Shown here: piece after piece, positions 34,930 through 49,500 of the stretch
Layout of the letters: each line of letters starts with the position of its first letter
How positions within the stretch are numbered: the first letter of the stretch is position 1
NCBI GenBank assembly: GCA_031272035.1
Contig: JAISUO010000034.1
Coordinates: forward strand, 790-64,789
DNA from: Synergistaceae bacterium
GTDB lineage: Bacteria; Synergistota; Synergistia; Synergistales; Aminobacteriaceae
Length of the DNA: 64,000 nucleotides
Reading direction: 5' to 3'
Translations under genes and position numbers: made by a program
Notes under the pieces: generated by a model
Database searches by the model: none
Seen by the model: only the letters and a program-made list of their open reading frames with translations
What the model was told of the DNA's origin: nothing

Positions 34930-34938
34930 TGGTATAAT
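34930..34938 (+). promoter_or_regulatory. Extended -10 element (TGgTATAAT) for iclR
   Basis: TGGTATAAT at 34930-34938, 80 nt upstream of the iclR ATG. It is back-to-back with the minus-strand promoter. Confidence 0.4.
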
Positions 34939-34942
34939 ACAA

Positions 34943-34970
34943 ATTATAAGATAAAAATTTTTTCGGTCAA
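34943..34970 (-). promoter_or_regulatory. Sigma70-like promoter for the lyase/TRAP/citDEF operon
   Basis: On the minus strand: TTGACC (34970-34965), 16 nt, TATAAT (34948-34943). Confidence 0.5.
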
Positions 34971-34996
34971 GATAGTTCGATCAGATAATTCGATCA
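34971..34996. repeat. 2 x 13-bp tandem repeat GATA(G/A)TTCGATCA (candidate IclR-type operator)
   Basis: Copies at 34971-34983 and 34984-34996 (12/13 identical). They sit directly upstream of the minus-strand -35 and inside the iclR leader. Confidence 0.6.
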
Positions 34997-35018
34997 AAAT
35001 GTCAGGGAGATTTTTGAA

Positions 35019-35804
35019 ATGAAAATAGCGAGGGAGGACGGCACGTCTTCGCTGAGAAAGGCGATTGGCGTGCTGAAGTGTTTTTCCGAGGAACGCAGGG
35101 AGCTTTCGATGACGGACGTGGCCCATGCTCTGGCCCTGCCTCCCGCCACCGCCGCCAGAATCCTCGGCGCGCTGGTCGAAGAGGGTCTTTTGGAGCGGGA
35201 TGAGCGCAGCAAACGGTATCAGTTGGGCATACAGTGTCTGCGTATGGGAAAGATTGCGAACCTTTCCGGCACATTACGCGTCTGCGCCCGGCCTTTTATG
35301 GAAAAATTGCGGGACCGGTTCGACGAAACGGTCAATTTATACGTAAGGGAAGGTCGGGTTCGGATTTGTTACGCCCAGTGCGAGACCACCTCGACGCTGC
35401 GGCGGTCCATCCCCCTGGGATCGAGGTTTCCCCTTGCGGCCGGGGCGGCGGGGCGCTGCCTTCTGGCCTGGATGCCGCCGGAGTTCATTCGCGAGGTCAT
35501 GGAGGATTTGTCTCCCTTCACTGAAAACACGGTGACGGAGAGAGCGCGTTTTCTGGAGCTTTTGGAGGAGACGAAGCGCAATCTCTTCACGATCAGCCGA
35601 GCGGAGAGAGAAAGGGGCGTCCTTGCCATCGCCTCTCCCGTTTTCGACGCGCCGGGTTCCGTTCGCGCCAGCCTGAGCATTGCGGGGCCGGCCAGCCGCT
35701 TCACGGATGCGATTATCGAAGAAATGATCGTCATGCTGAAGCAGGTCGCCGTCGAATTTTCTGAGCTTCTCTCCAGTGGGAAAAAAGCGGAGGGCGAAAG
35801 GTAA
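35019..35804 (+). CDS. IclR family transcriptional regulator
   Basis: N-terminal HTH (LRKAIGVLKCFSEERRELSMTDVAHALALPPATAARIL) and a C-terminal IclR effector domain. Divergent from the operon. Confidence 0.9.
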   Translation: MKIAREDGTSSLRKAIGVLKCFSEERRELSMTDVAHALALPPATAARILGALVEEGLLERDERSKRYQLGIQCLRMGKIANLSGTLRVCARPFMEKLRDRFDETVNLYVREGRVRICYAQCETTSTLRRSIPLGSRFPLAAGAAGRCLLAWMPPEFIREVMEDLSPFTENTVTERARFLELLEETKRNLFTISRAERERGVLAIASPVFDAPGSVRASLSIAGPASRFTDAIIEEMIVMLKQVAVEFSELLSSGKKAEGER

Positions 35805-36122
35805 AATCCTTTTTCGGCGACCTCGGGGCATATCGAAGACGAACCCGCTGAACACCTGACACACCGGCAGATTTCCGGAAAAGCCCCCCTTCGATTTTCC
35901 ATAAAAATGTGAAAATTATATTTCCATGCAAAATATTCTGTCGTAGAATCCCATTTTTGTTGTAAAATTCATTTCAAAGAGATTTTTGACTCATATTTTC
36001 AATGTTCCGGGACAGCGTTTTTAACTTTGAATTCAGTGAAATTTGTTGACGCAGGTGATGCGATAATGAATATTCCCGCTTTTTGGCATGGGAAATTTTG
36101 GTAATCAAGGGAGATGCAGATA

Positions 36123-38294: not shown

Positions 38295-38328
38295 AAACTG
38301 CAGACCAGAAATTAAAAGAAGCGAAAAA

Positions 38329-38374
38329 CCTGGGGGGAACGGTGGCTTTTGTCCGTCGTTCCCCCTGGATTTTT
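38329..38374 (+). terminator. Rho-independent terminator of the MCP gene
   Basis: GGGGGAACG...CGTTCCCCC stem followed by GGATTTTT. Confidence 0.7.
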
Positions 38375-38503
38375 GGAAGTCCTTCTCCGCGCGGCGCCTT
38401 TGCAGCATGATGCAGAAATCTTTCATCCAGAAGGTCGGATGGGCGAATCAAATCTCCCCGAAGTTTATTTTTTAATAAATATAAAAATTTTTCCTTTCAC
38501 TTA

Positions 38504-38531
38504 TTGACAACTTTTGCATTTGGGGTAAGAT
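38504..38531 (+). promoter_or_regulatory. Sigma70-like promoter of the TRAP/AcnX operon
   Basis: TTGACA (38504-38509), 16 nt, TAAGAT (38526-38531). This leaves a leader of about 200 nt before the first RBS. Confidence 0.4.
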
Positions 38532-38736
38532 GACCTTACCTCATTTCATGTTCGTGCTTTTGAGCAGTAAAGTTTGGATAGTGCTGAAAAGTGTCGCCAA
38601 TGTCCACAATTTAGAAACCAATTATGCCAGGTCAGGGTACCGTTTGTGTCGATGTTCATGGAATCTCCACCATTGTAAGTTGTGGACGGTGATTTTCATA
38701 AATATAAAAATATGCCTGCCAAAAGGAGGTGAAAAA

Positions 38737-39051
38737 GTGCCGCACATTACGGTGAGGGGTGTCTCAAAGGAAAAATTGAAGGAGTACGCCGAAGATGTGA
38801 AGAATATTGTTGTTTCCGCTTCGGAGGTCAAAAGAGAGTACGTAAAGATTTTTTACTCGCCTGTGGAGCGCGTGGACGCAGCCGCGGAAACGGCGGTGGA
38901 TGTTTACTGGATGCCGCGGACGCAGGAGCTGCGCGACAGAGTGGCCGCACAACTGACCGAATATTTTCAAAAAAAAGGTTCTCCGTTTGTACAGGTGACC
39001 TTCACTGAATTTCAGGGAAATCTGTTTTACGAAAATGGAGTCCATTATTGA
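38737..39051 (+). CDS. Small cytoplasmic protein, tautomerase-superfamily/DUF1904-like
   Basis: A GTG start 6 nt after AAAGGAGGTG gives VPHITVRGVSKEKL... (104 aa). The upstream part of track ORF 38530.. has no RBS and an implausible composition. Confidence 0.5.
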   Translation: MPHITVRGVSKEKLKEYAEDVKNIVVSASEVKREYVKIFYSPVERVDAAAETAVDVYWMPRTQELRDRVAAQLTEYFQKKGSPFVQVTFTEFQGNLFYENGVHY

Positions 39052-39081
39052 GCGGTAAAAATTCAGAAGGGATGGTGCAAT

Positions 39082-40095
39082 ATGAAACGATCTCTGGGAT
39101 TTCTGGTTTTTATTTGTGCGATGGCTGTGTTCCTGACGCCCGTGACGGCGTTGGGCGCGGATAATTTTACGCCGGTTGTGTTGAAGTTCGCCAATCAGCA
39201 TCCCACGGATTCCATGGCCTCCATCGCGGATCGGGAGATCTGTGAGGAAGTGAAAAAAGCGACGGAGGGGCGGGTGTCTCTGGAGCTGTACACGGACAGC
39301 TCTTTGGGGGATTACACCAGCGTTTTCGAAGAAGTGATGATCGGGACAATCGCTATGGCCCATATCACGGCGGTGGAAACCTACGACCCCAGGATGTCGG
39401 GGTCGATGCTGCCCTACCTGGGCTCCAGCTACGCGGAACTGGCCAAAGCCTACAGGCCGGACAATTATTTGTTTAAAACCGTCTCGGAGAGCGCTCAGAA
39501 GCTGGGGCTTCGAACCTTCGGATTTTTCTGCGAGGGCTTCAGCGGCGTGGGTGTGTCCAAAGCGCTGACCGACGCCAACGTTCCGGTCAAAGAAAAAGGC
39601 GTGATTATCAGGGTTCCGGGGCTGGACAATTTTGCCCTTCCGGCGAAGGATCTGGGCTTCAGAACCGCGACCATCGCCTATTCCGACACCTACACCGCGA
39701 TTCAGACCGGCACGGTGGGCGGCTGGTGCGGAGGACCTCCCAACCTGAACTATCTCTACTTCCGGGACGTCATCAAATATTATTATCACTATCAGATGAC
39801 TCAGGAAGCGACGCAGATTCTGATAAATGAGAAAATTTTCCAGTCGCTCCTTCCGAAAGATCAGGAAGCGATAACGAAAATCATTCAGCAGAAATGCGCG
39901 GACAGCATCAAACTGGCGGAGGAAGACGACGCGAAATACATGGACATGATGAAGAAACAGGGCATCACCGTCGTGGAGTTCAGCGACGCGGAGAGGGCCA
40001 TTTTCGCGGAAAGCTGCCGTAAAAACGTGTGGCCGAGCCTCGCCAAAAACACGTCGCAGGAGTTTATCGACAGTATTTTGGCCAGCATAAAATAA
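39082..40095 (+). CDS. TRAP transporter substrate-binding protein (DctP family)
   Basis: Signal peptide, 337 aa, DctP-like blocks (LKFANQHP, ...FRDVIKYYY). Confidence 0.85.
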   Translation: MKRSLGFLVFICAMAVFLTPVTALGADNFTPVVLKFANQHPTDSMASIADREICEEVKKATEGRVSLELYTDSSLGDYTSVFEEVMIGTIAMAHITAVETYDPRMSGSMLPYLGSSYAELAKAYRPDNYLFKTVSESAQKLGLRTFGFFCEGFSGVGVSKALTDANVPVKEKGVIIRVPGLDNFALPAKDLGFRTATIAYSDTYTAIQTGTVGGWCGGPPNLNYLYFRDVIKYYYHYQMTQEATQILINEKIFQSLLPKDQEAITKIIQQKCADSIKLAEEDDAKYMDMMKKQGITVVEFSDAERAIFAESCRKNVWPSLAKNTSQEFIDSILASIK

Positions 40096-40171
40096 AAAAT
40101 TTCTTTCGAACAGCGCCGGTTCAGCCCGCCTGTGTCCGGGTGGGCTGAACTGAAATCGGGCCGGGAGAGGA

Positions 40172-40699
40172 ATGAGAATAATTAAAACGATTCTTCGGGT
40201 ACTGGATGATAAATTTGAAACCGTGGCGCATTTTATTGTAATTGTTTCGGGCGTCGCGGTTTGCGCCCTGATTTTTATCGGCGCAATGATGCGGTATATC
40301 ATAAAAGTCGATTTTTATGGCTCGGAAGAAATCATTCTCTTTATCGCGTTTTGGCTCTATTTCATGGGAAGCGCCCTGGCCGCGAAAAAGGGCACTCATA
40401 TCAACGCGAACATGCTGAGTCTTTTTATACGTAACAAAAAAACACTGAATAAGCTGGATTTAATCAAATCCGGGCTGTGTCTGATCATGGCCCTGATGGC
40501 CACGCTGTGGAGCTTCAATTATGTGGCCTGGTCCTGGAAAATGGGGGCGAAGTCCAACGTTTTCAAGCTGCCGAACGTCATTGCGCAAATTCCGATTTTC
40601 ATTTCCTTCGTGCTCTGGGATCTTTACCTGATACGGGATGTGGTGCGGGGTTTCGCGAAAATCCGCACCGCGGAAGGAGAGGGTGAATCATGCTCGTAA
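40172..40699 (+). CDS. TRAP transporter small permease (DctQ family)
   Basis: 175 aa with 4 TM segments, positioned between the DctP and DctM genes. Confidence 0.85.
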   Translation: MRIIKTILRVLDDKFETVAHFIVIVSGVAVCALIFIGAMMRYIIKVDFYGSEEIILFIAFWLYFMGSALAAKKGTHINANMLSLFIRNKKTLNKLDLIKSGLCLIMALMATLWSFNYVAWSWKMGAKSNVFKLPNVIAQIPIFISFVLWDLYLIRDVVRGFAKIRTAEGEGESCS

Positions 40700-42000
40700 T
40701 CACGGCCCTCATTGTGCTGCTGGTCACGATGATTATCGGCCTGCCGATCCCGCTGGCGTTTCTGGCCTCGGCGGGGAGCATCTGTCTCTTTGGAAACTAC
40801 AACCCCTCTTTGCTGATGGTTTTTGGTTACAACAAGATCAACTCCATTCTGCTGCTGACCATCCCCCTGTTTGTCCTGGCCGGTTCGATTATGGACAAGG
40901 GCGGCATCGGAGAAAAGCTGATCGGAACCGTAGCGAAGGGCGTAGGCAAAATTCGGGGCGGGCTGGGGATCGTCACGGTTGTATCCTGCGCGGTTTTTGG
41001 AGCGGTTTCCGGAAGCTCTTCCGCGACCCTTTCCTGCATCGGCTCCATTATGACGCCGAGGCTGAAGGAAAACGGCTATCCGGACGGTTTGATCGGCGCG
41101 CTGATCGCCAGTTCCGGTGTTTTGGGCATCCTGATTCCCCCTTCCATGCTGATGATTCTTTACGCCTGGGCAACCGGAGAGTCAGTGCTGGCCTGCTTTT
41201 TGGCCACGATCCTGCCTGGCCTCATGCTGATCGTTCTTTTTTCCGCCGTCAACTGTTTTTACGCGATTAAAAATCCCAATATCAGGGTTTACGACAGCGT
41301 TCTGCAGCAGGCGGACCTGAGAGAGAAAAAGAGAGGAAAGCAGGAAAAGGAATTCAGCGCCATTCCGGCTCTGTTGATGCCCGTCATCATTCTGGGGTCG
41401 ATTTACGGCGGCATTCTCACCGCTACGGAAGCCGCGGCGTTTTCCGTGATTTACGCCCTGCCCGTGGGAATGTTCTACTACAAAAAAATCGACAGAAAAG
41501 CCTTTAATGAAGGCCTTATTCAGGCGGGAGAAACGGCGGGCGTCATTATGACGATGCTGTTTTCGGTCATGATTTTGAGCCGGCTTTACGTGAGCGAAAA
41601 TCTTCCCAAAATGATCCTCACTTTTCTGACCTCCATTTCGGAGAACCGAACAATTATTCTCGTCATGATCAATATTTTCATGATTATCCTGGGAATGCTC
41701 ATGGACGACTGCTCGGCGACAATTCTGGCCGCTCCCATTCTTCTGCCCGTCATGACGGCTTTGGGGGTCAGCCCCATTCATTTCGCGGCGATTTTGGGCG
41801 TGAACATCGGCATGGGCAACGTTACTCCGCCCACGGCGCCGCTGCTGTACCTGGGAGGACGCATTTCCGGAGCGGAGGTTCGGGACATGCTGGGTCCCAA
41901 TCTGGCCCTGATTATCTTCGCGTGGCTGCCGACGCTTGTGGTGACCACGTACATTCCCGCCTTCGGGCTGTTTTTGCCGAGGCTTTTCGGTTACGCCTGA
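40690..42000 (+). CDS. TRAP transporter large permease (DctM family)
   Basis: 436 aa with about 12 TM segments. Overlaps dctQ by 10 nt. Confidence 0.9.
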   Translation: MLVITALIVLLVTMIIGLPIPLAFLASAGSICLFGNYNPSLLMVFGYNKINSILLLTIPLFVLAGSIMDKGGIGEKLIGTVAKGVGKIRGGLGIVTVVSCAVFGAVSGSSSATLSCIGSIMTPRLKENGYPDGLIGALIASSGVLGILIPPSMLMILYAWATGESVLACFLATILPGLMLIVLFSAVNCFYAIKNPNIRVYDSVLQQADLREKKRGKQEKEFSAIPALLMPVIILGSIYGGILTATEAAAFSVIYALPVGMFYYKKIDRKAFNEGLIQAGETAGVIMTMLFSVMILSRLYVSENLPKMILTFLTSISENRTIILVMINIFMIILGMLMDDCSATILAAPILLPVMTALGVSPIHFAAILGVNIGMGNVTPPTAPLLYLGGRISGAEVRDMLGPNLALIIFAWLPTLVVTTYIPAFGLFLPRLFGYA

Positions 42001-42047
42001 TCAGGGTCGATTCGCGTAAAGAAGGAAATGAAGGAAGGAAATTGAGG

Positions 42048-43328
42048 ATGCTCAAACTGACGGATTACGAGAAAGACATGCTGAACGGGAAAATGGGGCC
42101 CTTTAAACAGAGAGCCCTGCAAAAAATCGTGGAGTACGCCAACGTGTTGGGGGCGGAAGAGCTTTGCGAAGTGACCAAGGCAACGGTTTATTTCGGCGCG
42201 CATCCCTATTTGGAGGCCGTGGAATCAGAGGATTACGACGAAATTTTTTCGAAAATGATCCTGTGCAGCGATCGGAAATATCGGCTGGAGCCCTTTGCGG
42301 AGGAGTGCTTTTCCCAGACCTGCGTAGGTCCCTGCGACCACTATTGTTACGAACCCCTCAATCTGTCCCGGGAGGTTTTCGAAAAAAATCTGCGATATCT
42401 GGAGCTCACGAAGGAGGCGGGGGTGAGCATTGCGGGAAGCTGCACGCCTTACCTCAGCGGATGGATTCCCATTCGGGGAGAGCACTTCGTTTCGACGGAA
42501 TCCAGCAACATTCTCATGAGCAACTCCGTGCTGGGCGCTTACGGCAACGCGGACGGGCTGGAGGCGGCCGCCTGGTCCGCCATCTGCGGCAGAACTCCGA
42601 AATGGGGAAATCATATTGCCGAAAATCGTTACGCTACCCACATTTTTGAAATTCAATGCAAAAGCGAATCGATTTTGGACTGGGACATCATCGGCCTGAC
42701 GCTGGGGCGTTTGCTGCCGGGCAACGGAAGGCCCGTTTTGACCGGAAATTTCAAACGTCCCAACCTGAATAAGCTGAAACGCTGCTTCGCCTCTCTGGCG
42801 ACCACCAGCGGAGCCGAGATCTGTCATATCGTGGGATGTACCGTTGAGGCGCCCACCCTGGAGGCGGCGCTGGCCGGTCACGAGCCTCTTGGAAAATTTG
42901 TCATCACGCAGCGGGACTGCGACGAGTCGCTGGCTCTGGTGTGCGATCCAGGCGGAGGTTCCCTTGAAATGGTGGTATTGGGCTGCCCCCATTATTCGCT
43001 GGAGGAAATCCGGTACGCCGCGAAATGTCTTGAGGGCAGACATGTCCATGAGGGGGTCAGTCTCCAGATTTGGACGGATATGGCCATTCAGCAGCTCGCG
43101 AAGGTCAACGGTTACGCCGACATCATCGAAAGAGCGGGCGGACATCTGCTGAACAGCGCCTGTCCCATGGTTTGCGGCAGAACGGTGTTCGACAGGGTGA
43201 AGACGGGTTTCGCGACGGACGGCGCCAAGCAGGCCCACTACCTGCACACGGATTTGAATGTGAAGATTTTCTACGGCGACGCCCAAAAATGCATCGAAGC
43301 GGCGGTCAGAGGCGCGTGGGAGGCCTGA
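42048..43328 (+). CDS. Aconitase X catalytic subunit (DUF521)
   Basis: MLKLTDYEKDMLNGKMGPFKQRALQKIVEYANVLGAEEL is the characteristic AcnX large-subunit N-terminus. 426 aa from the internal ATG with an AAGGAAGGA RBS. Confidence 0.8.
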   Translation: MLKLTDYEKDMLNGKMGPFKQRALQKIVEYANVLGAEELCEVTKATVYFGAHPYLEAVESEDYDEIFSKMILCSDRKYRLEPFAEECFSQTCVGPCDHYCYEPLNLSREVFEKNLRYLELTKEAGVSIAGSCTPYLSGWIPIRGEHFVSTESSNILMSNSVLGAYGNADGLEAAAWSAICGRTPKWGNHIAENRYATHIFEIQCKSESILDWDIIGLTLGRLLPGNGRPVLTGNFKRPNLNKLKRCFASLATTSGAEICHIVGCTVEAPTLEAALAGHEPLGKFVITQRDCDESLALVCDPGGGSLEMVVLGCPHYSLEEIRYAAKCLEGRHVHEGVSLQIWTDMAIQQLAKVNGYADIIERAGGHLLNSACPMVCGRTVFDRVKTGFATDGAKQAHYLHTDLNVKIFYGDAQKCIEAAVRGAWEA

Positions 43329-43330
43329 CG

Positions 43331-43750
43331 ATGGGAAAAATTTTGATCAGGGGAAGACCGGCTTTTCCGGGAAAAGCTGCCGGCGAGGCGATTGTGTGTC
43401 CCGACAGCATTCAGGGCTGGTCGGGGGTCAGCGACAAAACGGGAATTATTATCGAAGAAGCGAATCCCGAAAAAGGAAAATGCATTGCGGGGAAAATATT
43501 GGTTCTTCCCTACGGCAAGGGGTCCACAGGGTGGTCGGGGCATTTTCACTCCGCCTCCGTGGCGGGTTTTACGCCGGCGGGATGGCTGTTTTCCAGAATC
43601 GACTCGCGTTCGGGAGTGGCGACGGCGGTGCTGTCGATTCCAACGGTTGCGGACTTTCCTGACGACGTGGATTTGTTTGAAATCATCGAATCCGGAGACT
43701 TCGTCGAAATCGACGGCGACACCGGAGAGGTTATCGTTACGAAAAAATAA
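43331..43750 (+). CDS. Aconitase X swivel-domain subunit (DUF126)
   Basis: 139 aa. GKAAGEAIV...GKILVLPYGKGSTGWS fits the DUF126 pattern. It starts 2 nt after the large-subunit stop. Confidence 0.75.
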   Translation: MGKILIRGRPAFPGKAAGEAIVCPDSIQGWSGVSDKTGIIIEEANPEKGKCIAGKILVLPYGKGSTGWSGHFHSASVAGFTPAGWLFSRIDSRSGVATAVLSIPTVADFPDDVDLFEIIESGDFVEIDGDTGEVIVTKK

Positions 43751-43766
43751 GGAGGACAGGTGAGGA

Positions 43767-44147
43767 ATGGAACGCGAAATCATCGAAACCCGTAAGGCTC
43801 CGAAACCGGTGGGTCCCTATTCTCATGTGGTTAAATACGGAAATTTGATTTTCGTTTCCGGACAAATTTCCGCGGATCTCGAGACGGGGGAAATCATTGT
43901 TCAGGATGTGGCCGGGCAAACGCGAACCGCCCTGGAGACGATCAAAAATATTTTGGAGGAAATCGGGAGCGGCATGGATAAGGTTCTGAAATGCACGATT
44001 CACCTTTCCGACGAAAAGTATTTTGACGAAATGAATCGGGTTTACAGCTCATTTTTTGAAAAGGGCTATCCCGCGAGAATCACGGTTTTCGGCGCGAAAC
44101 TGTACGCGGGCATCGATATTGAAATCGACGCCATTGCGGGCGTTTGA
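43767..44147 (+). CDS. ridA: RidA/YjgF-family reactive enamine/imine deaminase
   Basis: 126 aa. APKPVGPYSHVVKYGNLIFVSGQI and the C-terminal ARITVFGAKL...IEIDAIA are typical of the family. Confidence 0.9.
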   Translation: MEREIIETRKAPKPVGPYSHVVKYGNLIFVSGQISADLETGEIIVQDVAGQTRTALETIKNILEEIGSGMDKVLKCTIHLSDEKYFDEMNRVYSSFFEKGYPARITVFGAKLYAGIDIEIDAIAGV

Positions 44148-44162
44148 GCGGAGAGAGTTTCG

Positions 44163-45782
44163 GTGGAATATTTCAGCATTTTTAACGATGTTCTGGGCCC
44201 CGTTATGACGGGGCCTTCCAGTTCTCATACCGCCGGGTGTGCCAGAATCGGCGCGATGACGCGGATTCTGCATGGTCGGGAGATTCGGCGGGCGGAGGTC
44301 ATTTTCGATCAAAACGGCTCTTATCCCGGCACCTGCAGAGGACAGGGATCGGACCGCGGTTTTACGGGAGGACTGCTGGGATTTTCTCCGGATGACCTCC
44401 GTTTGAAAAATGCCCTGGAGATCGCGGAAAAATCCGGAGTCAGGGTGGAGTTCAAACAGGCGGACCTGGGCGCTCATCACCCTAATGAAGCCCGGATCAA
44501 CGTTTATGACGGCGAAAGCGACAGAGTGGAAATGAGCGTTCTGACCCGTTCCGTCGGCGGTGGAATGATCGAAATCGTGGAAATGGATGGCTTTCCGGTC
44601 AGCATTAAAGGCGAAACAGGAACAATCTATATTGCCGCCCGCGGAGAAGAGGCCTTCGATCAGATTCGGAAAAAACTGGACGGAAAAACGCGATACGTGG
44701 AAAAACAAAATGGAGAGCGAATTCTTTTTGAAATTCGTTCCTCTTCATTTAATGAAGAAAATGATGAAAAAGAGCTCAAAGAAAAAGAGCTTCGCGATTT
44801 CAGAGAACTGCCGGGGATAGATTTCGTTCGGGTGGCGGAGGTCATTTTGCCGGCGCCCAAAAGAGAGAGACCTGCCCCTCCTTTCGAGAACGCCGCGGGG
44901 GCTCTGGAACGTCTGAAACAATCAGGCGAAAAGAAAGAAATGTGGGAACTGGCCGTTGCCTATGAAAAAGGGGTTACGTTTCTGTCGGCGGACGAGATTT
45001 TTGGGAAAATTCGAGAGATTCTTCAGGTCATGCGAGAGTCCGGAAAGCCGGTGGACCCCGCTCGAACGGTCTCACAAGGATTTTTGGGGTATCAGGCTTC
45101 CGGAATGCTGGAGAAAGCCGCGAAAATCCGGACAGTGAACATGGGCTTTCTGGAGGACTGCATGATTTGGGCCGTCTCCGTAATGGAAAACAACTGCGCC
45201 CGAAATAAAATCGTTGCCGCGCCCACCGCGGGGTCCTGCGGCGTCATTCCGGCGTCTGTGGTGGCGATTGGCGACAAAATGGGCTGTTCCGACGAGGCGA
45301 TCGAAAAAGCCCTGCTGGCCGCGGGGCTGGTGGGAGTTTTTATTGCGAATTCGGCGACGTTCGGCGCGGAGGTGGCGGGGTGTCAGGCGGAAAATGGCGC
45401 CGCCGGCGCGATGGCGGCGGCAGGCGTCGTGCAGCTGCTGGGCGGGTCGGTGGAAAACGGATTTCAGGCGGCTTCCCTGGCTTTGCAGAATTTGCTGGGA
45501 CTGATTTGCGACCCTGTGGGCGGTCTCGCCGAAGTTCCCTGCGTCGGTCGAAATGTTGCCGCGGCGTTCAACGCCGTCGTCTCTGCGAACATGGTGATGT
45601 GCGGGTATAATCCAATCATTCCGCTGGATGAAACGATCGATGCCATGTTCAAAGTGGGGAAAATGCTCCCGGAAGCCCTGAGGTGCACCTGCAGGGGAGG
45701 GCTGTGCGACACCCCCACCGCGAAAATGATCACGGAGCGGCTTGCGAGGGAAAATGCCGCTGCGGAGGTCAGGCGTCATTGA
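44163..45782 (+). CDS. Iron-sulfur L-serine-dehydratase-family enzyme, fused beta-alpha chain
   Basis: N-terminal SIFNDVLGPVMTGPSSSHTAG (beta chain), acidic linker, then alpha-chain blocks APTAGSCGVIPA and AENGAAGAM. GTG start. Confidence 0.85.
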   Translation: MEYFSIFNDVLGPVMTGPSSSHTAGCARIGAMTRILHGREIRRAEVIFDQNGSYPGTCRGQGSDRGFTGGLLGFSPDDLRLKNALEIAEKSGVRVEFKQADLGAHHPNEARINVYDGESDRVEMSVLTRSVGGGMIEIVEMDGFPVSIKGETGTIYIAARGEEAFDQIRKKLDGKTRYVEKQNGERILFEIRSSSFNEENDEKELKEKELRDFRELPGIDFVRVAEVILPAPKRERPAPPFENAAGALERLKQSGEKKEMWELAVAYEKGVTFLSADEIFGKIREILQVMRESGKPVDPARTVSQGFLGYQASGMLEKAAKIRTVNMGFLEDCMIWAVSVMENNCARNKIVAAPTAGSCGVIPASVVAIGDKMGCSDEAIEKALLAAGLVGVFIANSATFGAEVAGCQAENGAAGAMAAAGVVQLLGGSVENGFQAASLALQNLLGLICDPVGGLAEVPCVGRNVAAAFNAVVSANMVMCGYNPIIPLDETIDAMFKVGKMLPEALRCTCRGGLCDTPTAKMITERLARENAAAEVRRH

Positions 45783-45870
45783 CGGATTCGGATTTCGGCC
45801 CATATGAAGAAATCCTCGCAGGAAGTGTATAATAATCCAATACTTGGGTAACTGATTTTGGAGGCGGCCT

Positions 45871-46458
45871 GTGAGCGAATTTGTAGGTTCTCATATCAAA
45901 AGACTGAGAAAAACGCATAAAATGACGCTTCAGCAGGTAGCGGAATTTACAGACCTCTCTGTGGGCTACCTCAGTTTGATCGAGCGGGGACGTACGAGCC
46001 CCACCGTGGCGAACCTGCATAAAATTTGTCAGGCGCTGAACATCACGATGGCGGATCTGTTTGTCAATATGGAAAACGACAACAAGTGCGTCAGAAAAGA
46101 AAATCGACGTCTTCTTTTCGACGATCCCGGCAGGGTGAAATATGAAGCCCTCACCGAGGGGTCACGGTCGATCGTGAGCATGTGTATGCACGTTCTGGAC
46201 GAACAGGTCCATGAAGCTGTAACCCACGTGGCCGACGAGTGTGGATTTATCATTCAGGGAAGCATGATTCTGACCATTGAAGGGATAGAATATTCGGTGG
46301 GGGAGGGGGATTCCATTTATATTCCTGCGGGAAGCGCCCACTCCTTCTGCAGAACCAGCGACTGTCCCTGCATCAGCATCTGGACCGCTCCCGCCGCCAA
46401 TTATCCTTTCGTCTCTCCCTCCGTTTTCGCCGCGGTCCGGTCTTCGGATTCGGCCTGA
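45871..46458 (+). CDS. XRE-family HTH regulator with a C-terminal cupin domain
   Basis: IKRLRKTHKMTLQQVAEFTDLSVGYLSLIERG (HTH_3), plus cupin-like GEGDSIYIPAGSAHSF. Confidence 0.85.
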   Translation: MSEFVGSHIKRLRKTHKMTLQQVAEFTDLSVGYLSLIERGRTSPTVANLHKICQALNITMADLFVNMENDNKCVRKENRRLLFDDPGRVKYEALTEGSRSIVSMCMHVLDEQVHEAVTHVADECGFIIQGSMILTIEGIEYSVGEGDSIYIPAGSAHSFCRTSDCPCISIWTAPAANYPFVSPSVFAAVRSSDSA

Positions 46459-46561
46459 AAATAAATAAGTCAACGCCCGATCGCGCGCGAGAAAACCGAC
46501 GCAACCGGGCGCTGGGCATTAAAAATTGAAGATTAATTGAAGATTAGAGATTGAAACTTGT

Positions 46562-49500
46562 TTATTTTTTGATCTGCGCCTCCAGCTTTGGAATGAACGC
46601 CTCCACTTCCGGGTTCTTATGATATTTGAGGCTTTCCGTGTAACGGTTCAGCGCGTCCGCATATTTCCTGTTTCTGTAGAGATCGTTGGCCTCGTGCACC
46701 AGTTTGTTGGCCTTTTCCATATTCTTCAGGGCGACCTCCAGATGGTCGGCGAAATCCCTGACCTGCGGATTGTGGCTGAGTTTGTAGCTTTCTCTGTACT
46801 TGTCCAGCGCCTCCGCGTATTTTTTCTCTCTGTAGAGAGTGTTGCCGTCGCGGAAAAGAGCATCGGCCTGAACCAGGTCGATGGAGGAAACCTCTGTCGA
46901 CGTCTTTTCCTCGGCTTTCTTCGGGTAGACGTCTTCGGACAGGTCGTCGCTGGCGCTTTCGGAGGGAATTACGACGTTGGAAGCCGGCAGGGCGGATACC
47001 GGCGGAGACAGAGTCGCCTCAAGTTTCTTTATTTTCTCGGACAGATCCACGTCGTCCGGTGTTTTCTGAAGGGCGCGTCTGTAGCGTTCCAGGGCGTCTT
47101 TGGGCCTTTTCTGCTTCAGAAGATTGTCCCCTTCTTTGGTCAGAGCCTGAGCCGCGGTGGCATCCGCGTTTCTCACGTAGATGTCCGCCTTTTCGTCGTA
47201 ATCGTATTTCAGACTTTCACGATACTTCTCCGTCGCGTCCGCAGGTCTTTTCTTTTTGATCAGAGCCTCGGCGTCCTTTCGCAGTCTCGCTCCCTCGGAC
47301 TGAGCGAAACGTTTCGTTTCCTGCTGAAGGATTTTTTCCAGTTCTTCGTCTCCTCGAAGGAGAAGGCTTTCTCTGTATTTCTCCAGCGCCTCGGAGGTTT
47401 TTTTGTTCTTCAGTAGGGAATCTCCCTCCCTGCGCAGGGCGTCGGCGCGCTCCTTCACCACTTTTTCCTCCTCGCTCCGCTCCATGATAAGGGCCATATA
47501 AGCCGTGAGCTGAGGATCGGGAAAGAGTTTCCGGCTCTGTTCATAGAGCTTCAGCGCGTCAGAGTATCGCTTTTTATCGATCAGAGCGTCGGCCTTCGCC
47601 CGCAGGTCCCCCGCCTTCGCCAGAGTCGTTTTTTCTTCAAGAATTTCGCGGTTCAGTCGCGCCACGTCTTTGCTGGTCATGTCGTTTTTTTCGAGCAGAA
47701 GGCTGTCCTGGAGACGAAGCAGCGCTTCAATTTTACGTCCCTGTTCCAGCAGCGCCCCTCCCTCCGCACGCAGTCGGGCCGCCAGATTTGCGCTGGCGCG
47801 GACTTTTTCCTCCGCTTCCTTCAGGGCAAGTTTCATTTCCGTCGTTATTGCCCCGGGTCGCAGAGCTTCCGCCTCCTGCGCCCGGCTTTCGGCTTCTTCA
47901 TATTCGCCGGTGGAGAGCAGCCAGGTGCTTTCCGAGAGAAGGCGAGCAGAAAGTTCCATTTTTTCGAAGTCTTCCTTCATTTGTTTCACGCCGAAGGTCA
48001 CGTCGGGGTCGCCGGGGTCGAGGACGGAAGCCTGAACCGCCGTTTCCAGGGCTTTCAGGTGCCGGTCTTCTTTCCACAGGTCCAGGGCCTTCAGCCAGGT
48101 CTCCCAGGCAAGCGCGCGTCGGGCGTCCCGGGTGACGTCGCTTTTGTTCACGATGATCGGTATGCTGAGTTTCCCTTCTCCAAGAACGATGCCCCGGGCA
48201 TCCTTCGCAACGGCCGTCAGTTTCGCGGTGCCGGGAAGCACTCGGCGGACCAGGGCTGCGTTGTCGCCGGAGGCCAGAATGGAGGAGTCCGAATCCACCG
48301 TCCAGAGCCAGGAGACCGCTCCGTCCGGCAGAGGCGAGAGACTGGCCTGAACTTCGATGGGAGTTTCCGTGACAAATTCGTGAACTTCCTCCAGACGTTT
48401 CTGGTTTGCGTTCCACAGGAGAGCGTTTTTTCTGCCCTCGTTTGCGGTGAGGCTGACGCTCCAGTCCTCTGCGGTGAGAGAAAGGGTTCGCTGCAGAGAG
48501 ACCGTATCCGTTCCCTTTCGCAGGACGGAAAGTTCAACCGTCACCGGCAGATCGTTCGCCGGATAAAAGGAATAGGTCTTTCCCTCGGAGCCGGGATTTC
48601 CGTCCCGGATGTTCCCCTGAACCTTCCAGCGGAACTCCGCGTCTTCGATGTTTCCGTTGTCGACGCGAATAAGGGTGCGCTGTCCTCGTCGGGGCAGGGA
48701 CGGCACGGCCCTCAGGACTGGAGGATTTGCCTGCAGAGCGGCGAGCCAGGCCGCTTCGATTCTGCTCTTTTGGACTTTGCTCAGAAGCTGGGCGGATTCA
48801 TCGCTGGAGGCCAGAGCCAGAGAAGCGGTCAGTTTTTCCTCGGCCAGTTCAAGGCGCGACTCCCTTTCCAGAATGACGGCCTCCCTGTAAAGTTCTCCGG
48901 CCCGGGCCAGAGTGATGGCATCTTCGCTGACGCGTCCGCGCAACACCTGAATCGAACGGAGAACGTTGTCGTCAATCCAGACGCTCTCGCTTTCGATGAA
49001 AAGATCGAGGGCTTTTTCCAGATTCCCCTCGGCTTCGGCTTTGCGGGCCTCACCGGCCAGTCCCGCGGCCCGACCGATTTTTTCATTTCTCGTTTTGATG
49101 GTCTGTTCAAGGCGCTGTATGAGTGAGAAATTTTCCTTCCCAGGGAAAATCGACTCGCTTCTGCGGGCAAGGGCCAGGGCTTCGTCCAGTCGGCCCTGTT
49201 TTTCGGCTTCTCTGGCCTGTTCCGCGAGAATTTTCGCTTCCGTTCGATGTTTGTTTCGCGTTTCGATGCGCCGGGCCAGCTGCGTCATACGGGTCTGAGT
49301 GTCGGATTCCCGACGTACGTTTTGAGCGCGATGGTAGCGGTTCATGGCCTCTTCCAGACGACCTTCAACCTCCAGACGCTCCGCTTCCTTCACCAGCGCC
49401 GCGACCTGGGAGATCTGAGCCTGAATGGCGGCAATGTGAGTTTTCACCCGTTCCCTCGACCGCTGGGAGACGGCGTTGGACCAAAGTCCGGCCGCCTGGG

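What the first reader, a model, noticed from the sequence alone, without database searches (positions are those of the whole stretch)
38504..46458. TRAP - aconitase X - RidA - Fe-S serine-dehydratase-like operon: candidate pathway for an unidentified hydroxy-amino/hydroxy-acid substrate
Eight co-oriented, closely spaced genes: a small tautomerase/DUF1904-like protein, DctPQM, AcnX large and small subunits, RidA, and a fused beta-alpha L-serine-dehydratase-family enzyme. An XRE-cupin regulator follows. Two-subunit bacterial AcnX enzymes are known as cis-3-hydroxy-L-proline dehydratases, and the archaeal ones as mevalonate-5-phosphate dehydratases. RidA quenches enamine/imine products of dehydratases. 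I do not recognise this combination of two different Fe-S dehydratases, an imine deaminase, a possible tautomerase and a dedicated TRAP importer as a described pathway. It could process collagen-derived hydroxyproline isomers or another beta-hydroxy amino acid down to a 2-oxo acid.
Basis: partly seen in the sequence, partly recalled or inferred. Interest (0 to 1): 0.65.

Follow-up and report, generated by a model that had tools for sequence, protein, structure and literature searches.

The report
Uncharacterised aconitase-X hydroxy-amino-acid catabolic operon
This is a real, widely conserved nine-gene operon of anaerobic (mostly gut) bacteria. It is built around an uncharacterised iron-sulfur "aconitase X" dehydratase and a protein of unknown function (DUF1904), and it most likely turns an imported beta-hydroxy amino/imino acid into a 2-oxo acid by a route nobody has described.

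Summary
Nine co-oriented genes lie behind one promoter: DUF1904, DctP, DctQ, DctM, AcnX large and small subunits, RidA, a fused beta-alpha Fe-S serine-dehydratase-family enzyme (SdaBA), and an XRE-cupin regulator.

The AcnX keeps the type-II [4Fe-4S] Cys triad and the catalytic Ser/Glu/Lys. It lacks the landmark residues of both characterised AcnX functions, so it belongs to the uncharacterised bacterial type-II subclasses.

In 80 genome loci, AcnXLS + DUF1904 + RidA + XRE-cupin forms a conserved core. Interchangeable modules attach to it: TRAP + SdaBA (as here), BCCT + a dedicated MttB methyltransferase ± 2-oxoacid:ferredoxin oxidoreductase, or ABC + amidohydrolase. One genome carries two deeply diverged copies of the whole nine-family set.

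Best model:
- AcnX dehydrates a beta-hydroxy-alpha-(N-alkyl)amino or imino acid, most likely of the 3-hydroxyproline type, to an enamine.
- DUF1904, whose N-terminal Pro is invariant, tautomerises it.
- RidA hydrolyses the imine to a 2-oxo acid.
- SdaBA removes a related hydroxy-amino acid or isomer.

The substrate is not identified, and I found no paper describing this pathway. It is a new variant of a known kind, of moderate to high interest.

The parts
38475..38488 (+). Operator-like AT-rich element, copy 1 (ATAAATATAAAAAT), just upstream of the -35 hexamer
   Evidence: Both exact 14-nt copies in the window lie in this control region; 0 are expected by chance. A related palindrome, TWATAAATATWA, lies just upstream of homologous operons in L007, L015, L020, L094 and L099. 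That the XRE-cupin protein binds it is inferred.
38504..38531 (+). Sigma-70-type promoter, TTGACA-16 nt-TAAGAT
   Evidence: Best promoter-like site in 38200-46700, matching 10 of 12 positions. It follows the terminator of the upstream MCP gene at 38330-38368.
38698..38711 (+). Operator-like element, copy 2, 26 nt upstream of the DUF1904 start codon
38737..39051 (+). DUF1904 protein (104 aa, GTG start). Proposed Pro-1 enamine/enol tautomerase.
   Evidence: PF08921, E=6.5e-17. A GGAGGTG Shine-Dalgarno sequence precedes the GTG. The Met-Pro N-terminus is invariant in all homologues. Predicted secondary structure is beta-alpha-beta twice. PDB homologues 4m1a and 1u9d have unknown function. This subfamily is found only in AcnX operons.
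39082..40095 (+). TRAP solute-binding protein DctP (337 aa, with signal peptide)
   Evidence: PF03480, E=2.7e-33; NF037995, 115.9 bits against a cut-off of 50. The closest solved SBPs (SiaP, isethionate-binding and others) reach only E~1e-16, so the ligand cannot be inferred.
40172..40699 (+). TRAP small permease DctQ
   Evidence: PF04290, E=1.5e-19.
40690..42000 (+). TRAP large permease DctM
   Evidence: PF06808, E=2e-87; TIGR00786, 330 bits against a cut-off of 268.
42048..43328 (+). Aconitase X large (catalytic) subunit, 426 aa. Type II, uncharacterised subclass.
   Evidence: PF04412, E=5e-93. The AF2 model (pLDDT 83) matches TkAcnX and AtAcnX at TM 0.82-0.84. C132/C313/C372, E151-S152-S153, K394 and Y398 align with the TkAcnX cluster and substrate-core residues. 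Six further cysteines are conserved in the clade: C40, C87, C92, C96, C204 and C259.
43331..43750 (+). Aconitase X small (swivel) subunit, 139 aa
   Evidence: PF01989, E=1.2e-20. Ser65-Thr66 align with the TkAcnX catalytic Ser62-Thr63. Trp30 aligns with AtAcnX Trp35 (Leu27 in Tk). Gly67 replaces At Thr72 / Tk Val64 (PMC8184944).
43767..44147 (+). RidA enamine/imine deaminase, 126 aa
   Evidence: TIGR00004, 124.4 bits against a cut-off of 106.25. The P-A-R arginine motif is present. RidA genes of different lineages (31-82% identical) sit at different positions in homologous operons.
44163..45782 (+). Fused beta-alpha Fe-S serine-dehydratase-family enzyme (SdaBA), 539 aa
   Evidence: PF03313, E=1.8e-64, and PF03315. 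The motifs GPSSSHTAG, CQAENG and CDPV..PC are conserved. It scores below all NCBIfam L-serine ammonia-lyase equivalog cut-offs. It co-occurs with AcnX in three diverged AcnX clades.
45871..46458 (+). XRE-HTH + cupin transcriptional regulator, 195 aa
   Evidence: HTH_3 E=1.8e-13 and Cupin_2 E=1.8e-10. A homologous regulator is present in 21 of 29 loci of the close clade, usually transcribed divergently upstream.

Best explanation
This is a substrate-inducible catabolic operon for a beta-hydroxy-alpha-amino or imino acid carrying a carboxylate. The most likely substrate is a 3-hydroxyproline-type compound, free or N-methylated.

Proposed steps:
1. The DctPQM TRAP system imports the compound.
2. 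The two-subunit [4Fe-4S] aconitase X abstracts the C-alpha proton (Ser65 of the small subunit) and eliminates the C-beta hydroxyl on the cluster. The product is a 2-enamine, by analogy a delta-2-pyrroline-2-carboxylate-like species.
3. DUF1904 uses its N-terminal proline as a general base, as tautomerase-superfamily enzymes do, and converts the enamine to the 2-imine/iminium.
4. RidA hydrolyses the imine to a 2-oxo acid, releasing ammonia or an amine.
5. The fused Fe-S SdaBA enzyme performs the same type of beta-elimination on a second, related hydroxy-amino acid that AcnX does not take. This could be the other diastereomer or L-serine.
6. The XRE-cupin protein senses the substrate and controls the promoter through the two AT-rich operator-like repeats.

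Shown here: gene content, operon structure, conservation of catalytic residues, co-conservation and modularity.
Inferred: the order of steps, the role of DUF1904, the class of substrate.
Guessed: the identity of the substrate.
For: (a) The catalytic apparatus of AcnX is intact and of type II: Cys triad, Glu-Ser-Ser, Lys and Tyr in the large subunit, and Ser-Thr in the small subunit. The fold is confirmed.

(b) The known AcnX reactions are dehydrations of 3-hydroxy acids with C2-H abstraction. C3LHyp gives the delta-2 and then the delta-1-pyrroline-2-carboxylate (PMC8184944).

(c) A RidA is found in 17 of 29 close-clade loci, including loci that have no Sda gene (L007, L009, L011, L014, L016, L019, L020, L023, L025, L026, L094). 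The RidA genes come from different lineages. The imine therefore arises from the AcnX branch.

(d) Four-subunit 2-oxoacid:ferredoxin oxidoreductases lie directly adjacent in L007, L009, L014, L016, L023 and L094. This predicts a 2-oxo acid product.

(e) In more distant AcnX clades the neighbours are imine-reducing families, Ldh_2 (the Pyr2C reductase family) and octopine dehydrogenase, together with proline-racemase-superfamily genes. All known functions of that superfamily act on proline or hydroxyproline (PMC4113996).

(f) Trp30 of the small subunit equals AtAcnX Trp35, which packs on the pyrrolidine ring.

(g) DUF1904 has an invariant Met-Pro start and a beta-alpha-beta x2 secondary-structure prediction, and it is associated exclusively with this AcnX clade: 21 of 29 loci against 1 of 51. 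Every DUF1904 relative recovered from metagenomes lies in such an operon.

(h) All nine families are kept together in two deeply diverged copies in one genome (L003 and L054). SdaBA also accompanies a third AcnX clade that has proline-racemase and Asp/Glu-racemase genes (L066, L067, L074, L079).

(i) The same AcnX pocket residues occur in the TRAP+Sda, BCCT+MttB+OFOR and ABC+amidohydrolase contexts, which are interleaved in the tree. A dedicated MttB orthologous group accompanies the BCCT version. 3-hydroxyproline betaine is a genuine dietary betaine.
Against: No substrate has been tested.

The AtAcnX residues that bind the ring nitrogen are not conserved: Thr72 is replaced by Gly67, and no Asp203 equivalent could be aligned. 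By Watanabe's criteria the enzyme is therefore not a C3LHyp dehydratase.

DUF1904 showed no detectable sequence similarity to 4-OT, and the fold search on its model was inconclusive. Its placement in the tautomerase superfamily rests on my memory of the SCOP/Pfam-clan classification plus the conserved Pro-1.

SdaBA keeps all L-serine dehydratase motifs. It also occurs alone with a transporter (L086, L088) or with a TRAP but no AcnX (L091), so it may simply be an L-serine deaminase.

SdaBA and MttB never share a locus (0 of 80). I have no firm explanation for this.

The TRAP binding protein gives no clue to the ligand.
Confidence: 0.55

Rival explanations
1. Two independent functions happen to lie side by side. 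TRAP + SdaBA + RidA is an ordinary L-serine (or Ser/Thr) uptake and deamination unit: 2-aminoacrylate is quenched by RidA and pyruvate is formed. AcnXLS + DUF1904 is a separate unit for an unrelated substrate, co-transcribed only for convenience.
For: SdaBA retains every canonical Fe-S L-serine dehydratase motif and scores just below the equivalog cut-offs (217.8 against 243.2; 140.8 against 161.2). Homologues about 50% identical occur as XRE-cupin + 360-aa membrane protein + SdaBA (L086, L088), as DctPQM + SdaBA without AcnX (L091), and alone (L087). In a widespread gut lineage SdaBA survived a deletion that removed AcnX.
Against: The full nine-family set is retained in two deeply diverged operons within one genome (L003 and L054). 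SdaBA also accompanies a third AcnX clade. In L088 the Sda module sits next to an AcnXLS-RidA module. RidA tracks AcnX even where Sda is absent. TRAP occurs with AcnX but without Sda in L007, L025 and L093.
Confidence: 0.2
2. AcnX acts on a 3-hydroxy acid whose nitrogen is not on C-alpha, such as carnitine, norcarnitine or 4-amino-3-hydroxybutyrate. Dehydration gives an alpha,beta-unsaturated acid. DUF1904 shifts the double bond to the beta,gamma position, creating an enamine. RidA hydrolyses this to succinic semialdehyde plus an amine.
For: AcnX type IIb dehydrates a 3-hydroxy acid with no alpha-nitrogen (MVA5P). BCCT carriers and MttB-family enzymes of this kind handle carnitine-type betaines, and the fate of norcarnitine is explicitly unknown (PMC8604678). 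Double-bond shifts of this type are what 4-OT-like tautomerases do (my own knowledge). Trp30 could provide a cation-pi contact.
Against: This model does not explain the adjacent 2-oxoacid:ferredoxin oxidoreductases. It also leaves unexplained the Ldh_2 and octopine-dehydrogenase imine reductases, the proline-racemase genes and the SdaBA partner. From my own knowledge, RidA-subfamily enzymes are specific for 2-imino acids. A TRAP + SdaBA version is also hard to rationalise for carnitine-like compounds.
Confidence: 0.12
3. [quoted passage not shown]
For: The best PDB sequence hit is TkAcnX (E=1e-39), and AtAcnX is also hit. The fold TM-score is 0.82-0.84 to both. Some database entries name homologues 'phosphomevalonate dehydratase large subunit-like' or 'cis-L-3-hydroxyproline dehydratase'.
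Against: The equivalog model NF051439 scores 159 against a cut-off of 700. The enzyme has the Tk-type third Cys, which type IIa lacks. Thr72 is replaced by Gly, and the residues aligned with the Tk phosphate-binding loop differ (F49-G50-A51, Y54). Leu27 is replaced by Trp (PMC8184944). There are no mevalonate-pathway or aerobic Lhp genes nearby. Sequence identity is only 23-26%.
Confidence: 0.05

Closest known systems
[quoted passage not shown]
   Same: The family and fold are the same (TM 0.83). The chemistry expected is also the same: C-alpha-H abstraction by the small-domain Ser and loss of the C-beta-OH on an Fe-S cluster, giving an enamine and then an imine. The Glu-Ser-Ser, Lys and Tyr residues are conserved, as is the ring-stacking Trp (At Trp35 = Trp30 here).
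   Different: Identity is only 23-24%. The third cluster ligand is the Tk-type Cys (C313), which predicts a [4Fe-4S] rather than a [2Fe-2S] cluster. Thr72 is replaced by Gly. The NCBIfam equivalog score is 159 against 700. The setting is an anaerobe operon with TRAP, RidA, DUF1904 and SdaBA, not the aerobic Lhp cluster with Pyr2C reductase.
Aconitase X type IIb: archaeal mevalonate-5-phosphate dehydratase (TkAcnX, PDB 7cnr/7cns)
   Same: Both have two-subunit architecture and an identical Cys triad (Tk C110/C283/C342 = C132/C313/C372). The residues that bind the carboxylate and the 3-OH are the same. It is the best PDB sequence match (E=1e-39).
   Different: The residues aligned with the phosphate-binding loop are not conserved. 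Leu27(S) is replaced by Trp and Val64(S) by Gly. There is a 22-residue Cys-rich insertion (C87/C92/C96). The context is bacterial and catabolic, with no isoprenoid genes.
Watanabe's uncharacterised bacterial AcnX subclasses IIc-IIf (PMC8184944)
   Same: These are bacterial, two-subunit enzymes that lack the landmark residues of both known functions, which is exactly what is seen here.
   Different: That paper gives no function, context or partner proteins. Which letter applies could not be decided, because the supplementary figure is an image.
Fe-S L-serine dehydratase + RidA (SdaA/SdaAA-SdaAB; LpSdaA, PDB 4rqo)
   Same: The SdaBA gene has the beta-domain GPSSSHT motif, the three cluster cysteines and the GGL-C tail region. 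RidA quenching of 2-aminoacrylate is the textbook partnership.
   Different: SdaBA is a direct fusion of a long (type-1-like) beta chain and an alpha chain (539 aa). It scores below all equivalog cut-offs and is embedded in an AcnX operon in three diverged clades. Its substrate has not been tested.
MttB-superfamily quaternary-amine demethylation systems of gut acetogens (MtpB proline betaine, MtcB carnitine, MtyB gamma-butyrobetaine)
   Same: Sister operons built on the same AcnX core carry BCCT + a non-Pyl MttB ± a corrinoid protein, as in those systems.
   Different: The window itself has no MttB or BCCT. In the described systems the demethylated product is an end product. Here an AcnX-DUF1904-RidA-OFOR set appears to degrade it further, which has not been described.
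Tautomerase superfamily (4-oxalocrotonate tautomerase, MIF, cis-CaaD)
   Same: DUF1904 has an invariant N-terminal proline after Met removal and a predicted beta-alpha-beta x2 secondary structure. The proposed role, enol/enamine to keto/imine tautomerisation of a 2-substituted enoate, is typical of the superfamily.
   Different: There is no detectable sequence similarity to 4-OT and the fold search was inconclusive. No DUF1904 member has a known activity.

Membership tests
Aconitase X (AcnX) subfamily of the aconitase superfamily | AcnX catalytic domain and separate swivel domain; aconitase-like three-domain fold | tested here: met
   PF04412, E=5e-93, and PF01989, E=1e-20. Foldseek TM 0.82-0.84 to 7cnr and 7cnp; weaker matches to homoaconitase, IPMI and aconitase.
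AcnX type II ([4Fe-4S]-type, two subunits) | Separate small and large subunits; Cys triad equivalent to TkAcnX C110/C283/C342; Glu129-Ser130-Ser131, Lys361 and Tyr365 in the large subunit; Ser62-Thr63 in the small subunit | tested here: met
   C132/C313/C372, E151-S152-S153, K394 and Y398. S65-T66 in the small subunit. The Cys triad, Glu-Ser, Lys and the small-subunit Ser are conserved in every complete sequence of the 80 loci; the residue after Glu-Ser is Ser, Gly or His, and Tyr398 is kept only in part of the family.
[quoted passage not shown] | C3LHyp landmark residues (At Trp35, Thr72, Asp203, Ile206); type IIa has only two cluster cysteines; score above the NF051439 equivalog cut-off | tested here: not met
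   The Trp is kept (W30), but Thr72 is replaced by Gly67. The Asp203/Ile206 region could not be aligned (ungapped mapping gives Y48/A51). The Tk-type third Cys is present. NF051439 scores 159 against 700.
AcnX type IIb (mevalonate-5-phosphate dehydratase) | Phosphate-binding Gly48-Val49-Ser50, Asn53 and Asn79; Leu27(S) and Val64(S); a modified mevalonate pathway in the genome | tested here: not met
   The aligned residues are F49-G50-A51 and Y54 (ungapped mapping, low confidence). In the small subunit they are W30 and G67. No mevalonate-pathway genes occur in the window or in 80 related loci.
Fe-S L-serine ammonia-lyase (SdaA / SdaAA+SdaAB) | SDH_beta + SDH_alpha domains, three cluster cysteines, beta-domain SSSHT motif | tested here: met
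   PF03313 and PF03315. GPSSSHTAG at residue 17, CQAENG at 407, CDPV..PC at 449-460. These are conserved in 12 homologues.
Fe-S L-serine ammonia-lyase (SdaA / SdaAA+SdaAB) | Score above the NCBIfam equivalog cut-offs (that is, a predicted L-serine-specific enzyme) | tested here: not met
   TIGR00718, 217.8 against 243.2. TIGR00719, 140.8 against 161.2. TIGR00720, 174.7 against 345.1. Substrate specificity cannot be tested with these tools.
RidA subfamily of Rid proteins | TIGR00004 score above cut-off; conserved Arg that binds the 2-imino-acid carboxylate | tested here: met
   124.4 bits against 106.25. The P-A-R motif lies at residues 102-104.
TRAP transporter (DctPQM type) | Family-7 solute-binding protein plus DctQ and DctM membrane subunits encoded together | tested here: met
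   PF03480, PF04290 and PF06808. TIGR00786 scores 330.5 against 268.45.
Tautomerase/MIF superfamily (for DUF1904) | Catalytic N-terminal proline (Pro-1) | tested here: met
   The Met-Pro start is invariant in 15 locus-derived and 16 database homologues, and in PDB 4m1a and 1u9d.
Tautomerase/MIF superfamily (for DUF1904) | Beta-alpha-beta fold and detectable homology to known tautomerases | tested here: inconclusive
   The predicted secondary structure is beta-alpha-beta x2. The Foldseek top hits are generic PII/ferredoxin-like folds at E~1e-2. hhalign against 4-OT gives a probability of 0.3%. The SCOP/Pfam-clan assignment is recalled from memory only.
PuuR-like XRE-cupin regulators | N-terminal HTH_3 + C-terminal cupin; PuuR equivalog score | tested here: inconclusive
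   The architecture is met. The PuuR equivalog scores 68.5 against 211, so it is not met. The effector is unknown.

The most novel reading that the evidence does not exclude
The AcnXLS-DUF1904-RidA core would be a previously unknown, modular anaerobic pathway. It would degrade beta-hydroxylated N-alkyl/imino acids without redox chemistry, through an Fe-S dehydration, a Pro-1 tautomerisation (the first function for DUF1904) and an imine hydrolysis, ending in a 2-oxo acid.

In sister operons the core would be fed by a dedicated MttB methyltransferase that demethylates a dietary hydroxy-betaine such as 3-hydroxystachydrine. That would be the first route carrying a demethylated quaternary amine on to energy-yielding 2-oxoacid oxidation in gut bacteria.

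The window would encode the TRAP-fed version. There, a serine-dehydratase-family enzyme would have been recruited as a second Fe-S dehydratase for another stereoisomer. The six extra conserved cysteines might bind an additional metal centre.
Probability: 0.3. Interest if true: 0.78.

Novelty: new variant of a known kind. Interest (0 to 1): 0.62.

Why it matters
If the model is right, five things follow.

1. It assigns a first physiological role to one of the bacterial AcnX subclasses that the structural work left open.
2. It gives the first functional hypothesis for DUF1904. Two crystal structures of that family have been deposited with function unknown.
3. It reveals a conserved, mobile three-enzyme deamination module in abundant gut Clostridia (Oscillospiraceae, Lachnospiraceae, Eubacterium), Spirochaetes and others.
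4. It connects that module to MttB-type quaternary-amine demethylation. [quoted passage not shown]
5. It suggests that Fe-S serine-dehydratase homologues may have substrates other than L-serine.

The operon is compact and has a clear regulator and binding protein, so the question can be tested directly by ligand screening and anaerobic enzymology.

Tried and rejected
- **Rfam scan of the whole window.** No RNA family was found, so there is no known riboswitch in the roughly 200-nt leader.
- **DUF1904 fold search.** Foldseek on the AF2 model (pLDDT 74) gave only generic alpha/beta hits and did not recover tautomerases. hhalign of the DUF1904 profile against 4-OT was negative. Pfam at E<=10 gave only DUF1904.
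- **Subtyping the MttB neighbours.** NCBIfam gave only sub-threshold hits to the Pyl-type TMA methyltransferase model, so the substrate could not be assigned.
- **TRAP ligand.** PDB sequence search with DctP found nothing closer than E~1e-16, so no ligand can be inferred.
- **Literature.** I searched for AcnX, DUF521/DUF126/DUF1904, VC0714/1U9D/4M1A, MttB+aconitase, hydroxyproline betaine+corrinoid, and Sda+RidA+TRAP. Nothing describes this cluster.
- **Supplement of PMC8184944.** Figure 8, the IIc-IIf signature table, is held only as an image, so the subclass letter could not be assigned.
- **Substrates considered and set aside.** Hydroxyectoine: there is no reason for an MttB, and the habitat is the gut. 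3-hydroxyaspartate: it does not fit BCCT/MttB. Carnitine/norcarnitine is kept as a minor rival. N-carboxyalkyl-serine (opine-like) substrates that would release serine are attractive for explaining SdaBA, but the AcnX pocket is identical across contexts and no such natural compound is known to me.
I could not measure whether the six extra cysteines cluster in space.

Full report
**1. The observation**

The mechanical ORF list and profile searches confirm nine co-oriented genes between 38.5 and 46.5 kb:
- DUF1904, 38737-39051
- DctP, 39082-40095
- DctQ, 40172-40699
- DctM, 40690-42000
- AcnX large subunit, 42048-43328
- AcnX small/swivel subunit, 43331-43750
- RidA, 43767-44147
- a fused SDH_beta-SDH_alpha protein (SdaBA), 44163-45782
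- an HTH_3 + cupin regulator, 45871-46458

The mechanical ORF for the first gene starts at 38530. The real start is the GTG at 38737. It is preceded by AAAGGAGGTGAAAAA, and every homologue begins Met-Pro at exactly this position.

Gaps between genes range from -10 to 88 nt. The upstream chemoreceptor gene ends with a 16-bp-stem terminator at 38330-38368. A convergent 1530-aa TPR protein closes the region downstream.

The genes further upstream are an unrelated organic-acid cluster on the other strand: an IclR regulator, a PEP-mutase/ICL-family enzyme, a TAXI-TRAP system, and CitE- and CitF-like genes. No paralogues of the operon's genes occur elsewhere in the window, apart from that distant TRAP permease. 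No Rfam family is present.

**2. What kind of AcnX this is**

The large subunit is most similar in sequence to the Thermococcus mevalonate-5-phosphate dehydratase (7cnr, E=1e-39). [quoted passage not shown] An AlphaFold model (pLDDT 83) superposes on both at TM 0.82-0.84 with 23-26% identity.

I used the residue roles given by Watanabe et al. 2021 (PMC8184944).
- The window protein keeps the type-II cluster ligands: C132, C313 and C372 correspond to Tk C110, C283 and C342.
- It keeps the residues that hold the carboxylate and the 3-hydroxyl: E151-S152-S153, K394 and Y398.
- In the small subunit it keeps the catalytic Ser-Thr pair, S65-T66.

It does not keep the residues that define either known specificity.
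- Position 67 of the small subunit is Gly. It is Thr72 in At and Val64 in Tk.
- The segment aligned with the Tk phosphate loop reads F49-G50-A51...Y54.
- NCBI's equivalog model for C3LHyp dehydratase scores 159 bits against a cut-off of 700.

One specificity residue does match the proline enzyme. Trp30 of the small subunit equals At Trp35, which packs on the pyrrolidine ring; Tk has Leu there.

The paper states that the bacterial subclasses IIc-IIf [quoted passage not shown] and are uncharacterised. That is where this protein belongs.

The clade also has six additional, widely conserved cysteines: C40, C87, C92, C96, C204 and C259. Three of them lie in a 22-residue insertion relative to Tk. 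The only two segments the AF2 model places below pLDDT 50 are 91-97 and 255-257: the first holds C92 and C96, the second lies just before C259. This is compatible with a cofactor-binding loop, but I could not test it.

**3. Genome neighbourhoods**

A protein search returned hundreds of close homologues, mostly from gut metagenomes. A scan of one genome per species returned 80 loci. They come from Oscillospiraceae, Lachnospiraceae, Eubacterium limosum, Epulonipiscium, Tissierellia, Geosporobacter, Spirochaetes, Synergistales, Desulfuromusa, Actinomycetota and others.

I located homologues of the nine window proteins by tblastn, called and clustered the remaining ORFs, and annotated the recurrent clusters with Pfam.

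Counts among 29 non-redundant loci whose AcnXL is at least 58% identical to the window's:

| Family | Loci |
|---|---|
| DUF1904 | 21 |
| XRE-cupin regulator | 21 |
| RidA | 17 |
| TRAP | 10 |
| BCCT | 10 |
| MttB-family methyltransferase | 9 |
| SdaBA | 7 |
| 4-subunit 2-oxoacid:ferredoxin oxidoreductase | 5 |
| Amidohydrolase | 6 |
| SBP_bac_5 ABC system | 4 |

Among 51 more distant loci:
- DUF1904 occurs once and the regulator twice.
- The neighbours are MttB (19), HAL-type lyases (10), Ldh_2 (6), octopine-dehydrogenase-like (6), proline-racemase-superfamily (5), Asp/Glu-racemase-like (6) and Mo-hydroxylases (4).

The closest relative (79%) has the identical eight-gene operon with the regulator divergent upstream.

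A neighbour-joining tree shows that the TRAP+Sda, BCCT+MttB(+OFOR) and ABC/amidohydrolase contexts are interleaved within the window's own subclade. The putative pocket residues are the same in all of them. The AcnX reaction is therefore probably the same in each, and the flanking modules are interchangeable feeders or outlets.

From the DUF1904 side the link is just as tight. Every DUF1904 relative found in a metagenome scan lies in such an operon, or in a deletion remnant of one.

**4. Is SdaBA part of the pathway?**

Three observations say yes.
- Contig JAHZDZ010000002.1 carries two copies of the whole nine-family set about 25 kb apart (L003 and L054). They are arranged differently. AcnXL of L054 is only 48% identical to the window's, SdaBA 35% and DctM 63%.
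- A third AcnX clade (46-48% identical; L066, L067, L074, L079) again has SdaBA immediately after AcnXS, together with proline-racemase-superfamily and Asp/Glu-racemase-like genes and a TRAP or an amino-acid permease.
- In L088 an XRE-cupin/transporter/SdaBA module abuts an AcnXLS-RidA-MFS module.

Other observations say SdaBA can also stand alone.
- Homologues about 50% identical occur with only a regulator and a 360-aa polytopic membrane protein (L086, a gammaproteobacterium).
- They also occur with a TRAP but no AcnX (second copy in L091), and alone (L087).
- In a very widespread gut lineage (its DUF1904 protein, P0262, was seen on 220 contigs) a deletion removed most of dctP, dctQM, acnXL and half of acnXS. 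It left DUF1904 and SdaBA intact.

SdaBA keeps all canonical motifs (GPSSSHT, CQAENG, CDPV...PC). It scores a little below each NCBIfam L-serine ammonia-lyase cut-off.

SdaBA and MttB never occur in the same locus: 12 loci have SdaBA, 28 have MttB, and none has both.

**5. Mechanistic reading**

Known AcnX chemistry is the anti-elimination of water from a 3-hydroxy acid. With C3LHyp it gives the 2-enamine, which tautomerises to delta-1-pyrroline-2-carboxylate.

Three independent kinds of neighbour say that the product here is a 2-imino or 2-oxo acid:
- RidA, which is recruited repeatedly from different lineages and is present even where SdaBA is absent;
- 2-oxoacid:ferredoxin oxidoreductases directly adjacent in six loci;
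- in the distant clades, enzymes of imine-reducing families (the Ldh_2 family that contains Pyr2C/Pip2C reductases, and octopine dehydrogenase).

DUF1904 has an invariant Pro after the initiator Met, a conserved Arg, and a beta-alpha-beta x2 secondary-structure prediction. From memory, its crystallised relative VC0714 (1u9d) is classified with the tautomerase/MIF superfamily. I could not verify this with the tools. An enamine-to-imine (or enol-to-keto) tautomerase is exactly the step between the AcnX product and the RidA substrate.

I therefore propose the sequence: import, AcnX dehydration, DUF1904 tautomerisation, RidA hydrolysis, 2-oxo acid.

The proline-racemase-superfamily neighbours are informative, because all known functions of that superfamily act on proline or hydroxyproline (PMC4113996). 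Together with the Pyr2C-reductase-family neighbours and the conserved ring-stacking Trp, they make a 3-hydroxyproline-type imino acid the best single guess.

The BCCT versions have a dedicated MttB orthologous group. Its members are 50-82% identical to one another and at most 41% identical to MttBs next to other AcnX clades. This implies a specific betaine precursor.

3-hydroxyproline betaine (3-hydroxystachydrine) fits.
- It is a beta-hydroxy alpha-betaine.
- It is a leading plasma marker of citrus intake, alongside stachydrine and N-methylproline (PMC7600452).
- Stachydrine and 3-hydroxystachydrine reach up to 2% of dry weight in some plants (PMC6200017).
- From my own knowledge, the MttB family already contains a proline-betaine demethylase, MtpB; the MtyB paper mentions MtpB but not its substrate.

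In the window's TRAP version the substrate would be the free or N-methyl imino acid. SdaBA would then take an isomer or a related hydroxy-amino acid. This last point is the weakest part of the model.

**6. Regulation**

The exact 14-mer ATAAATATAAAAAT occurs twice in the window's control region: at 38475-38488, upstream of the -35 hexamer, and at 38698-38711, upstream of the ribosome-binding site. None is expected by chance. A related palindrome, T(T/A)ATAAATAT(T/A)A, lies in the corresponding intergenic region of L007, L015, L020/L085, L094/L095 and L099. These are plausible operators for the co-conserved XRE-cupin regulator. This is inference.

**7. Comparison with what is known, and novelty**

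The parts belong to known families: AcnX, TRAP, RidA, Fe-S serine dehydratase and XRE-cupin. The AcnX, however, fails the membership tests for both characterised AcnX functions. DUF1904 has no known function.

No paper in the library connects AcnX with any of its partners here. I classify the finding as a new variant of a known kind: an AcnX-type dehydratase pathway with a new partner set and an unidentified substrate.

The main additions are:
- the subclass assignment;
- the recognition that AcnXLS-DUF1904-RidA-regulator is the conserved core;
- the link to MttB/BCCT and to 2-oxoacid oxidoreductases;
- the caveat that SdaBA may be an ordinary L-serine deaminase.

**8. Confidence**

| Claim | Confidence |
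|---|---|
| The operon is real and co-conserved | >0.95 |
| AcnX is an Fe-S dehydratase of an uncharacterised subclass | ~0.9 |
| General AcnX, DUF1904, RidA route from a beta-hydroxy-alpha-amino/imino acid to a 2-oxo acid | ~0.55-0.6 |
| 3-hydroxyproline-type substrate | ~0.35 |
| DUF1904 is the tautomerase of the pathway | ~0.5 |
| SdaBA acts on something other than L-serine | ~0.4 |

Noticed in passing
window 42048-43328 (AcnXL residues C40, C87, C92, C96, C204, C259): Six cysteines beyond the three cluster ligands are conserved across most of the 80-locus family but are absent from TkAcnX and AtAcnX. Three lie in a 22-residue insertion. The two segments with the lowest AF2 confidence are 91-97, which holds C92 and C96, and 255-257, just before C259. 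This could be a second metal or Fe-S site.
   Followed up: partly
window 38475-38488 and 38698-38711: The exact 14-nt repeat ATAAATATAAAAAT flanks the promoter and leader of the operon; 0 copies are expected by chance. A related palindrome lies upstream of homologous operons in other genomes. It is a candidate operator of the XRE-cupin regulator.
   Followed up: partly
window 38532-38736: A leader of about 200 nt lies between the predicted promoter and the DUF1904 start. It holds a spurious 173-aa ATG-started ORF in frame with the gene. No Rfam family matches it, and it is not conserved in sequence with other loci apart from the AT-rich element.
   Followed up: partly
L003 and L054 (both on contig JAHZDZ010000002.1, about 25 kb apart): One gut Bacillota genome carries two complete but deeply diverged copies of the nine-family set (DUF1904, DctPQM, AcnXLS, RidA, SdaBA, XRE-cupin) in different gene orders. 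AcnXL of L054 is only 48% identical to the window's. This suggests two related substrates, or stereoisomers, handled in parallel.
   Followed up: partly
L091/L092/L100 positions about 6200-7250 (L091 coordinates): A very widespread gut lineage (its DUF1904 protein was seen on 220 contigs) carries a deletion remnant of the operon. DUF1904, a 59-aa DctP fragment, the C-terminal half of AcnXS and then an intact SdaBA remain. Downstream lie a DAO/BFD + Pyr_redox_2 + DUF1667 triad and a second DctPQM-SdaBA unit.
   Followed up: partly
L039, L068, L070, L075: AcnXL-AcnXS pairs are tandemly duplicated within one cluster. The second copy is only 29-45% identical to the window's. They sit next to a HAL-type lyase, MttB, BCCT, Ldh_2 and a Mo-hydroxylase. 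This looks like a different, equally undescribed betaine-catabolic cluster.
   Followed up: no
L086 6864-7949 and L088 6894-7976: A conserved 360-aa polytopic membrane protein with no Pfam match lies between an XRE-cupin regulator and an SdaBA homologue. It is probably an uncharacterised amino-acid transporter family.
   Followed up: partly
window 28049-35804: A separate cluster lies on the minus strand with a divergent IclR regulator: a CitF-like CoA-transferase, a CitE/HpcH-like lyase, a TAXI-type TRAP system (NMT1_3 binding protein + fused DctQM) and a PEP-mutase/isocitrate-lyase-family enzyme. It looks like a C5/C6-dicarboxylate (itaconate/citramalate-type) catabolic unit and is unrelated to the finding.
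   Followed up: partly
window 36114-38294 and 46562-51154: A 726-aa 4HB-type methyl-accepting chemotaxis protein lies directly upstream, co-oriented and with its own terminator. A 1530-aa secreted or membrane TPR-repeat protein converges on the operon's end. MCP genes also flank the homologous cluster in Epulonipiscium (L085).
   Followed up: no
L084/L089 about 17441 onwards (L089 coordinates): In the 72%-identity relatives the operon is followed by an EamA exporter. After that comes a 3-hydroxyacyl-CoA-dehydrogenase-like + IlvD/EDD dehydratase + DUF2148 + second TRAP cluster. I did not examine whether this is functionally linked.
   Followed up: no
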